The position numbers and the translations under genes are program-made. The notes under the pieces are model-generated. The model had not been told where the DNA came from. It did not search any database and saw only the letters and a program-made list of their open reading frames with translations. From Escherichia coli (GTDB lineage: Bacteria > Pseudomonadota > Gammaproteobacteria > Enterobacterales > Enterobacteriaceae), in assembly GCF_003334255.1 (NCBI RefSeq), contig NZ_QOWU01000263.1: a DNA stretch of 320 bases, one strand, 5' to 3'. Positions 1-318 of the stretch are shown here, piece by piece; position 1 is the stretch's first letter; every line of letters starts with the position of its first letter.

Positions 1-4
1 TTTA

Positions 5-16
5 GGGCGCTTTTTT
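5..16. terminator. Possible distal half of an intrinsic terminator, truncated by the window edge: GGGCGC followed by TTTTTT
   Basis: On the + strand, GGGCGC (5-10) is followed directly by a T6 run (11-16). The complementary GCGCCC stem arm would lie left of position 1 and is not visible. On the minus strand the same region reads, just after the tRNA CCA, A6-GCGCCC, i.e. the A-tract side of a possibly bidirectional terminator. Only half the structure is present, so this is tentative. Confidence 0.3.
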
Positions 17-20
17 ACAT

Positions 21-96
21 TGGTGGGTCGTGCAGGATTCGAACCTGCGACCAATTGATTAAAAGTCAACTGCTCTACCAACTGAGCTAACGACCC
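21..96 (-). tRNA. tRNA-Lys, anticodon UUU, 76 nt with genomically encoded 3' CCA
   Basis: Reverse complement of 21-96 is GGGTCGTTAGCTCAGTTGGTAGAGCAGTTGACTTTTAATCAATTGGTCGCAGGTTCGAATCCTGCACGACCCACCA. It folds as a canonical cloverleaf: acceptor stem GGGTCGT/ACGACCC (7 bp), D-arm GCTC/GAGC, anticodon stem GTTGA/TCAAT with loop CTTTTAA (U33, anticodon UUU at window 61-63, A37), T-arm GCAGG/CCTGC with loop TTCGAAT, discriminator A, CCA. Recognised from memory as the E. coli-type tRNA-Lys(UUU) of the lysT family; the specific paralog is not assignable from sequence alone. Confidence 0.96.
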
Positions 97-144
97 ATAC
101 GGGTGTTACCTGAAAGATTTTTACTCGGGGCCAATCTTTAAGAT

Positions 145-162
145 TGGTGGGTCGTGCAGGAT
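145..162 (-). repeat. Orphan 18-nt tRNA-Lys 3'-end fragment (tRNA positions 59-76: end of T-loop, T-stem 3' strand, acceptor 3' strand, discriminator, CCA)
   Basis: 145-162 (TGGTGGGTCGTGCAGGAT) is identical to 21-38 and 243-260, the 3' termini of the two full genes. Identity stops abruptly at 163; the following sequence shows no tRNA body (no T-stem 5' strand, anticodon arm or D-arm). It therefore cannot fold into a tRNA and is a remnant, not a gene. Confidence 0.85.
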
Positions 163-242
163 GACTCGCTTCGCTCGCCCTACGGGCCGTTGCTGGCGCA
201 ACGTTATCCTTCACGCTTAACATCTGAGTTTGATGTTAAAAC

Positions 243-318
243 TGGTGGGTCGTGCAGGATTCGAACCTGCGACCAATTGATTAAAAGTCAACTGCTCTAC
301 CAACTGAGCTAACGACCC
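243..318 (-). tRNA. tRNA-Lys, anticodon UUU, 76 nt with genomically encoded 3' CCA (second copy, identical to 21-96)
   Basis: 243-318 is base-for-base identical to 21-96 (76/76). Same cloverleaf; anticodon at window 283-285. It lies upstream of the 21-96 copy in the direction of transcription. Positions 319-320 are probably the first bases of a short spacer to another upstream gene, which is not visible here. Confidence 0.96.

What the first reader, a model, noticed from the sequence alone, without database searches (positions are those of the whole stretch)
1..20. Half of a terminator-like hairpin at the window edge
GGGCGC-TTTTTT on the + strand at 5-16 has the form of the distal stem arm plus U-tract of an intrinsic terminator whose other arm lies outside the window. 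It could terminate a convergent + strand gene to the left, or be one face of a bidirectional terminator closing the tRNA operon. The latter would make the 21-96 copy the last gene of the operon.
Basis: inference. Interest (0 to 1): 0.15.

Follow-up and report, generated by a model that had tools for sequence, protein, structure and literature searches.

The report
Known terminator of lysT tRNA operon
The half-hairpin at the window edge is real: it is one arm of the already described Rho-independent terminator that ends the E. coli lysT (lysine/valine) tRNA operon, so the finding is correct but ordinary.

Summary
GGGCGCTTTTTT is at window 5-16 (+). It is half of a perfect 27-nt palindrome, AAAAAAGCGCC-TTTAG-GGCGCTTTTTT, whose other arm ends at the base just left of the window. 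The window matches the E. coli NCTC86 chromosome at 100% and lies in the lysT-valT-lysW-valZ-lysY... tRNA operon, which runs on the window's minus strand.

On that strand the RNA reads CCA-AUGU-AAAAAA-GCGCC-CUAAA-GGCGC-UUUUUU (-19.1 kcal/mol, z = -5.7), four bases after the last tRNA-Lys (window 21-96). This is the Rho-independent terminator of the lysT operon studied by Agrawal, Mohanty and Kushner (2014). They report that RNase P removes it, and that it is identical to the terminator after lysV.

All 5,426 complete E. coli genomes carry it. Other Enterobacterales keep the same hairpin position after tRNA-Lys, some with changes on both sides of the stem.

The 'convergent + strand gene' reading is wrong here, because nadA downstream runs in the same direction.

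That module varies from 1 to 3 copies among the E. coli strains sampled. The feature is already known and of low interest.

The parts
11..16 (-). A-tract (AAAAAA on the tRNA-sense minus strand; TTTTTT on the + strand). It can pair with the U-tract that lies outside the window and extends the stem to 11 pairs.
   Evidence: Sequence and fold. 71 of 80 distinct hairpin-bearing sites in other species also have an A-rich 5' flank, although the search pattern did not ask for one.
6..10 (-). Proximal (5') stem arm GCGCC of the terminator RNA. It is the same stretch as GGCGC, the distal arm when read on the + strand. Its partner GGCGC and the UUUUUU tract lie in the 11 bases immediately left of window position 1 (L001 2490-2500).
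   Evidence: Covariation at the middle and loop-closing pairs.
1..5 (-). Loop CUAAA of the terminator hairpin on the minus strand. On the + strand it reads TTTAG, where T1 and G5 can form a wobble pair around a 3-nt loop.
   Evidence: Fold results for both strands.
17..20 (-). 4-nt spacer AUGU between the tRNA's CCA end and the hairpin. The reported RNase P cut that removes the terminator falls between U (window 19) and G (window 18). It was mapped on the identical lysV terminator and presumed by the authors to apply to lysT.
   Evidence: Sequence; PMC4176162.
21..96 (-). tRNA-Lys(UUU), the last intact tRNA gene of the operon in this strain. Its 5' flank matches K-12 lysZ and its 3' flank matches K-12 lysQ.
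   Evidence: ARAGORN; Rfam tRNA, 79.2 bits; annotation; flank comparison.
145..242 (-). RtT-like spacer repeat between the two tRNA-Lys genes. At its 3' end on the tRNA strand (window 145-162) it carries an 18-nt copy of the tRNA-Lys 3' end. This is the same kind of unit that separates the two terminator copies outside the window.
   Evidence: Rfam RF00391 match at 145-311, 54.4 bits against a gathering score of 45; repeat family D3.
243..318 (-). tRNA-Lys(UUU), the equivalent of K-12 lysY.

Best explanation

RNA polymerase transcribes the last tRNA-Lys (window 96 to 21), then AUGU, an A6 tract, GCGCC and the loop CUAAA (window 20 to 1). Just beyond the window edge it transcribes GGCGC and UUUUUU. 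The GC stem forms, is extended by A-U pairing, and together with the weak rU-dA hybrid releases the transcript of about 1.1 kb.

RNase P then cuts off the terminator two nucleotides after CCA (U|G, between window 19 and 18). The tRNAs are released one at a time in the 3' to 5' direction.

It has the shape of a terminator, but no + strand gene at this locus would use it.

A second identical hairpin lies 156 bp downstream, after an RtT-like repeat unit. It most likely acts as a back-up stop that keeps the strong tRNA promoter from reading into the nadA-pnuC genes.

Basis for each step. Shown here: the sequence, the fold, the position, the conservation and the duplication. Taken from the literature: termination in vivo and RNase P removal. 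Inferred: the back-up role of the second copy.
For: - The window is 100% identical to the NCTC86 lysT operon. K-12 has the same arrangement after lysQ.
- The complete hairpin is read directly from the sequence. It folds at -19.1 kcal/mol, z = -5.7, with 0 of 200 shuffles as stable.
- It starts 4 nt after the CCA of the last tRNA, on the tRNA strand.
- PMC4176162 reports one polycistronic lysT transcript of more than 1100 nt that hybridises to a terminator probe. It also reports that the lysQ and lysV terminators are identical and that RNase P removes them. I confirmed the lysV identity directly.
- The 55-nt tRNA-end-plus-hairpin module is present in 5426 of 5426 complete E. coli genomes.
- Across other species the search pattern fixed only the tRNA-Lys 3' end and a downstream T6 run. 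Even so, 81 of 102 distinct sequences have a GC stem abutting the T-run, against 3.7 +/- 2.0 in shuffles (maximum 9).
- Stems differ on both sides: GCGCC/GGCGC becomes GCACC/GGTGC, GCTCC/GGAGC or GGAGAGC/GCTCTCC. In an alignment of 60 sequences, 97.1% of cells are paired against 40-77% when partners are slid, and 28 cells changed on both sides against 6.4 in shuffles.
Against: - No 3'-end mapping was available to me for this strain or locus. Termination at the first rather than the second copy rests on the published transcript size ('over 1100 nt') and on a probe that cannot tell the two identical copies apart.
- The RNase P cut site was mapped on the valU/lysV transcript and only presumed for lysT.
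- The simple consensus terminator scan did not report the hairpin. I read this as a false negative: once the stem is extended through the A-T pairs, no T-run is left after it.
- The covariation is modest. Only 2 of 12 pairs change on both sides, and the sequences are related, so the shuffle counts overstate significance.
Confidence: 0.93

Rival explanations
1. The hairpin works in both directions at this locus. Besides ending the tRNA operon, its + strand face stops antisense or convergent transcription arriving from the nadA side, protecting the tRNA genes from head-on polymerases.
For: The palindrome is perfect and the + strand RNA also has the form of a terminator: GCGCCU-UUA-GGGCGC followed by U6, -17.5 kcal/mol, z = -3.2. 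The A-tract is conserved in 71 of 80 distinct hairpin-bearing sites, although the search did not require it. At the paralogous valU locus the same hairpin lies about 78 nt beyond the stop codon of convergent xapR, so its + face is plausibly used there.
Against: There is no + strand gene for about 2.2 kb to the left; nadA and pnuC run in the same direction as the tRNAs. No promoter-like site was found on either strand of L001 2000-3600. A conserved A-tract is also explained by its contribution to one-way termination, a point from general knowledge that I did not test.
Confidence: 0.1
2. The hairpin is mainly a by-product of repeat amplification. The tRNA-3'-end + hairpin + RtT-like module spreads by unequal recombination, and its copies are passengers with no selected termination role.
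For: There are perfect 54-bp direct repeats 156 bp apart. Copy number is 1, 2 or 3 at the lysT locus in different E. coli strains, 1-7 places per genome, and 1-4 copies per cluster in other Enterobacterales.
Against: At least one copy is kept in every E. coli genome. The stem is maintained through compensatory changes, and through wholly different stem sequences at the same position, in other genera. The published Northern data show terminator-containing full-length transcripts. Repeat dynamics explain the copy number, not the existence of the hairpin.
Confidence: 0.04
3. The palindrome is a DNA-level protein-binding site, for example for a regulator of nadA, and not an RNA element.
For: It is a perfect inverted repeat in DNA, upstream of nadA.
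Against: It is about 400 bp from the nadA start, and its identical copy about 245 bp. The same sequence follows lysV at an unrelated locus. In other species the stem sequence changes while the pairing is kept, which is the signature of an RNA or secondary-structure constraint rather than a fixed binding motif.
Confidence: 0.02

Closest known systems
Rho-independent terminator of the E. coli K-12 lysT operon (after lysQ), described by Agrawal, Mohanty and Kushner, Nucleic Acids Res 2014 (PMC4176162)
   Same: The 27-nt hairpin and its 4-nt spacer after CCA are identical in sequence. It has the same position after the last tRNA-Lys and the same downstream neighbours: an RtT-like unit, a second hairpin and nadA.
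   Different: This strain (NCTC86-like) has one tRNA-Lys unit fewer than K-12. The tRNA in front of the terminator therefore has a lysZ-type 5' flank and a lysQ-type 3' flank. The terminator itself does not differ.
[quoted passage not shown]
   Same: The same hairpin, also present twice with an RtT-like unit in between in K-12. RNase P removal was mapped there.
   Different: It is a different locus. Its downstream neighbour xapR is convergent, so both faces of the hairpin could be used there. At the window's locus the downstream gene runs in the same direction.
Dual terminators at the ends of the rrnA, rrnB and rrnD operons, with a read-through small RNA between them (PMC8144298, abstract only)
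   Same: A very strongly transcribed stable-RNA operon ends in two terminators in tandem with a short structured segment between them.
   Different: Here the two terminators are identical copies produced by a 156-bp tandem repeat. The segment between them is an RtT-like tRNA-operon repeat, and no RNA product from it has been shown.
tyrT operon 3' repeats / RtT RNA (Rfam RF00391)
   Same: These are repeat units after or between tRNA genes that carry a copy of the tRNA 3' end. Rfam matches are above the gathering score.
   Different: The tRNA family differs (Lys, not Tyr). The unit between the two hairpins scores only 46.7 bits against a threshold of 45.

Membership tests
Intrinsic (Rho-independent) terminator | G+C-rich stem-loop in the nascent RNA | tested here: met
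   GCGCC-CUAAA-GGCGC, extended by 6 A-U pairs; -19.1 kcal/mol, z = -5.7.
Intrinsic (Rho-independent) terminator | Run of U directly 3' of the stem | tested here: met
   UUUUUU follows GGCGC immediately on the minus strand (L001 2495-2490, just outside the window). The + strand likewise has TTTTTT at window 11-16.
Intrinsic (Rho-independent) terminator | Lies at the 3' end of a transcription unit, in sense orientation | tested here: met
   It starts 4 nt after the CCA of the last tRNA-Lys of the lysT operon, on the same strand.
Intrinsic (Rho-independent) terminator | Pairing kept in relatives through changes in sequence | tested here: met
   81 of 102 distinct sites have a stem abutting the T-run, against 3.7 in shuffles. 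GC to AU/UA changes occur at one pair in 10 of 60 sequences and CG/UA at another. 97.1% of cells are paired, against 40-77% when partners are slid.
Intrinsic (Rho-independent) terminator | RNA 3' ends form in the U-tract in vivo or in vitro without Rho | not testable with these tools
   Literature only. In K-12 a terminator probe detects the full-length lysT transcript of more than 1100 nt in RNase P mutants (PMC4176162). I did not see nucleotide-level 3'-end mapping for this locus.
Bidirectional terminator | Symmetric hairpin with an A-tract 5' and a T-tract 3', so that both strands give stem plus U-run | tested here: met
   Perfect 27-nt palindrome apart from the loop; both strands fold.
Bidirectional terminator | Sits between convergent transcription units | tested here: not met
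   nadA and pnuC downstream run in the same direction as the tRNAs. The feature is met only at the paralogous valU/xapR locus.
Bidirectional terminator | Transcript 3' ends mapped on both strands | not testable with these tools
   No strand-specific 3'-end data were available.
RtT-like tRNA-operon repeat (Rfam RF00391), for the neighbouring spacer units and not for the hairpin itself | Covariance-model score at or above the family's gathering score | tested here: met
   Window 145-311, 54.4 bits against 45. The unit between the two hairpins scores 46.7 bits.

The most novel reading that the evidence does not exclude
The segment between the two identical hairpins (an RtT-like unit ending in a tRNA-Lys 3' fragment) might be made as a discrete small RNA. 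[quoted passage not shown] The 1-to-3-copy variation of this module among E. coli strains would then tune either the dose of that RNA or the insulation of nadA from the tRNA promoter.
Probability: 0.12. Interest if true: 0.35.

Novelty: already known. Interest (0 to 1): 0.07.

Why it matters
It matters little beyond correct annotation. The result fixes the 3' boundary of the lysT tRNA operon in this strain. It shows that the tRNA-Lys at 21-96 is the last gene and that nadA is insulated from it. It also shows that a reader without tools can correctly infer a terminator from half a hairpin.

There are two mildly useful side results. The terminator-plus-RtT-like module varies in copy number within E. 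coli (1, 2 or 3 copies at the lysT locus in the three kinds of strain I read). And a simple consensus terminator scan misses terminators whose A-tract pairs with the U-tract.

Tried and rejected
- The consensus promoter/terminator scan on the window and on 1.6 kb of context did not report the hairpin. I treat this as a false negative: the stem is extended through the A-T pairs, so no T-run remains after it.
- The + strand sites the scan did report in the window (100-112 and 188-203) lie antisense to the tRNA spacer. The second is the conserved stem of the RtT-like unit. I do not regard either as a terminator.
- The Rfam matches to plastid UTR families and YrlA are far below their gathering scores and overlap the tRNA genes, mostly antisense. 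I rejected them as artefacts of tRNA-like sequence.
- I tested for a convergent + strand gene left of the window and rejected the idea from the annotation.
- I searched the Agrawal et al. paper for any mention of read-through, nadA or a second terminator and found none. The role of the second hairpin therefore remains an inference.
Counts from it are a sample, not a census.

Full report
**Observation**

The window reads TTTAGGGCGCTTTTTTACAT at positions 1-20. GGGCGCTTTTTT occurs once, at 5-16 on the + strand, and in none of 200 dinucleotide-preserving shuffles. ARAGORN finds two identical tRNA-Lys(UUU) genes on the minus strand, at 21-96 and 243-318. Rfam confirms both at 79.2 bits and also matches the spacer between them to the RtT family (145-311, 54.4 bits against a gathering score of 45).

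**Where the window comes from**

The whole window matches the E. coli NCTC86 chromosome at 100%, and it matches every one of 5,426 complete E. coli genomes at lower identity or in part. In the annotated region (L001; window position 1 is L001 2501) the window lies at the distal end of the lysT tRNA operon, downstream of tolB-pal-cpoB.

- The tRNA order is Lys, Val, Lys, Val, Lys, Lys, all on the minus strand of the locus.
- After the tRNAs come an element annotated as 'RtT sRNA' and then nadA and pnuC, on the same strand.
- The nearest + strand gene is zitB, beyond pnuC.

**The missing arm**

The bases left of the window are ...GATAGC AAAAAA GCGCC. L001 2490-2516 therefore reads AAAAAAGCGCC TTTAG GGCGCTTTTTT. 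The partner arm ends at the base immediately before window position 1.

G5 is in the loop, or forms at most a G-U pair with T1.

On the tRNA strand the RNA is CCA-AUGU-AAAAAA-GCGCC-CUAAA-GGCGC-UUUUUU-GCUAU.

- The minus strand folds at -19.1 kcal/mol, z = -5.69, with 0 of 200 shuffles as stable.
- The + strand version folds at -17.5 kcal/mol, z = -3.20.

On the strand that is actually transcribed, the window holds the A-tract (16-11), the proximal arm (10-6) and the loop (5-1). The distal arm and the U-tract lie outside it.

**What is known about it**

Agrawal, Mohanty and Kushner (Nucleic Acids Res 2014, PMC4176162) report the following.

- The lysT promoter drives one polycistronic transcript of more than 1100 nt covering all seven K-12 tRNAs.
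- That transcript hybridises to a probe against the Rho-independent terminator.
- The terminators after lysV and lysQ are identical in sequence.
- RNase P starts processing by cutting the terminator off. The cut is between U and G, two nucleotides after CCA. It was mapped on the valU/lysV transcript and presumed by the authors for lysT.
- RNase P then releases the tRNAs one at a time in the 3' to 5' direction.

In window coordinates that cut falls between positions 19 and 18 on the minus strand. I confirmed directly that the 27-nt hairpin and the AUGU spacer after lysV are identical to those after lysQ and to those in the window.

**Conservation**

The 55-nt stretch made of the tRNA-Lys 3' end plus the hairpin is present in 5426 of 5426 E. 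coli genomes. It occurs at 1-7 places per genome, median 3, and the best copy is at least 99% identical in 4,798 records.

To test the structure beyond E. coli I scanned one genome per species. The pattern fixed only the last 18 nt of tRNA-Lys and a T6 run 18-48 nt further on, leaving the stem and the A-tract free.

- Of 102 distinct downstream sequences, 81 have a stem of at least 4 pairs with at least 3 G-C pairs abutting the T-run. Shuffles of the same sequences give 3.7 +/- 2.0, maximum 9.
- In the tally, 80 sequences have such a stem, and 71 of those also have an A-rich 5' flank.
- Stem sequences differ on both sides: GCGCC/GGCGC, GCACC(C)/(G)GGTGC, GCTCCC/GGGAGC, GGAGAGC/GCTCTCC, GCCGCTTC/GAAGCGGC and others.
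- In a MAFFT alignment of 60 distinct Enterobacterales-type sequences, 97.1% of cells form standard pairs, against 40-77% when the 3' partners are slid by 1-3 columns.
- The middle pair is G-C in 49 sequences, A-U in 9 and U-A in 1. The loop-closing pair alternates C-G (18), U-A (18) and U-G (10).
- 28 cells carry changes on both sides, against 6.4 +/- 6.6 in shuffles.

The covariation is modest and the sequences are related, but it points the same way as everything else.

**Interpretation**

This is the intrinsic terminator of the lysT tRNA operon.

The first alternative, a terminator for a convergent + strand gene to the left, fails. Everything to the left for about 2.2 kb is on the tRNA strand, and no promoter-like site was found on either strand nearby.

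The hairpin has the symmetric shape of a bidirectional terminator, but at this locus the second defining feature, convergent transcription units, is not met. At the paralogous valU locus the same hairpin sits about 78 nt beyond the stop codon of the convergent xapR gene. There the + face may well be used. That is an inference.

**Beyond the finding: the terminator is duplicated**

A perfect 54-bp direct repeat occurs twice, 156 bp apart, at L001 2329-2382 and 2485-2538. It consists of the tRNA-Lys 3' 18 nt, ACAT, the hairpin and GCTAT. Between the copies lies an RtT-like unit (46.7 bits). K-12 has the same arrangement after both lysQ and lysV.

The module is present once at the lysT locus in E. 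coli C, twice in K-12 and NCTC86, and three times in strain GMM076. In other Enterobacterales, clusters of 1-4 copies occur, mostly 155-181 bp apart.

The simplest reading is unequal recombination between the repeats. At least one copy is kept by selection for termination, and extra copies act as back-up stops in front of nadA. The back-up role is inferred, not shown. The paper does not mention a second terminator, read-through or nadA.

**Caveats**

- I had no nucleotide-level 3'-end data for this locus.
- The published probe cannot tell the two identical hairpin copies apart.
- The consensus terminator scan missed both hairpins, which I attribute to its stem extension using up the T-run.

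**Verdict**

The feature is an already described, ordinary intrinsic terminator, so interest is low.

Noticed in passing
L001 2329-2382 and 2485-2538 (the second overlaps window 1-38); K-12 L002 2158-2184 and 2314-2340: The terminator is duplicated. A perfect 54-bp direct repeat (tRNA-Lys 3' end + ACAT + hairpin + GCTAT) occurs twice, 156 bp apart, with an RtT-like unit in between (Rfam 46.7 bits; annotated 'RtT sRNA' by PGAP). Nothing I read describes the second copy.
   Followed up: partly
L004 (E. coli C), L002 (K-12), L005 (GMM076); E. coli genomes survey: The RtT-like-unit-plus-hairpin module at the lysT locus is present in 1, 2 or 3 copies in different strains. The 55-nt tRNA-end-plus-hairpin stretch occurs at 1-7 places per genome, median 3, in 5426 of 5426 genomes. 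Clusters of 1-4 copies, mostly 155-181 bp apart, occur in other Enterobacterales (Enterobacter, Pantoea, Erwinia, Phytobacter).
   Followed up: partly
L003 634-660 and 790-816 (K-12 valU operon); xapR stop at L003 894: The identical hairpin, also duplicated, ends the valU-valX-valY-lysV operon. There the downstream gene xapR is convergent, about 78 nt from the distal hairpin, so the + strand face could terminate xapR at that locus.
   Followed up: partly
window 21-242 compared with L002 1724-2153: This strain has one tRNA-Lys unit fewer than K-12. The tRNA at window 21-96 has the 5' flank of K-12 lysZ and the 3' flank of lysQ, as expected from a deletion by recombination between the identical lysZ and lysQ genes.
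   Followed up: yes
window 145-162: An 18-nt copy of the tRNA-Lys 3' end (TGGTGGGTCGTGCAGGAT on the + strand) sits in the spacer where the RtT-like unit ends. The same fragment precedes the second hairpin outside the window. It resembles the tRNA 3'-end fragments in the tyrT repeats.
   Followed up: partly
window 188-203 (+); also L001 3281-3296: The terminator scan flags CGTTGC-NNNN-GCAACG on the + strand. It is the conserved stem of the RtT-like unit, antisense to the operon. Among the operon's copies the loop differs (GCCA, ATGA, GTCA, GTTA on the tRNA strand) while the stem stays the same.
   Followed up: no
L006 about 639-665 (ST131 strain 4993, valU locus): A natural variant of the hairpin has GGCGT in place of GGCGC. 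This turns the outermost G-C pair into G-U and lengthens the T-run to seven. This strain has a single copy at that locus.
   Followed up: no
window 1-16 and L001 2334-2360, 2490-2516: The consensus terminator scan misses this published terminator on both strands, apparently because a stem extended through the A-T pairs leaves no T-run after it. Symmetric A-tract/U-tract terminators may be under-called in general by this kind of scan.
   Followed up: partly
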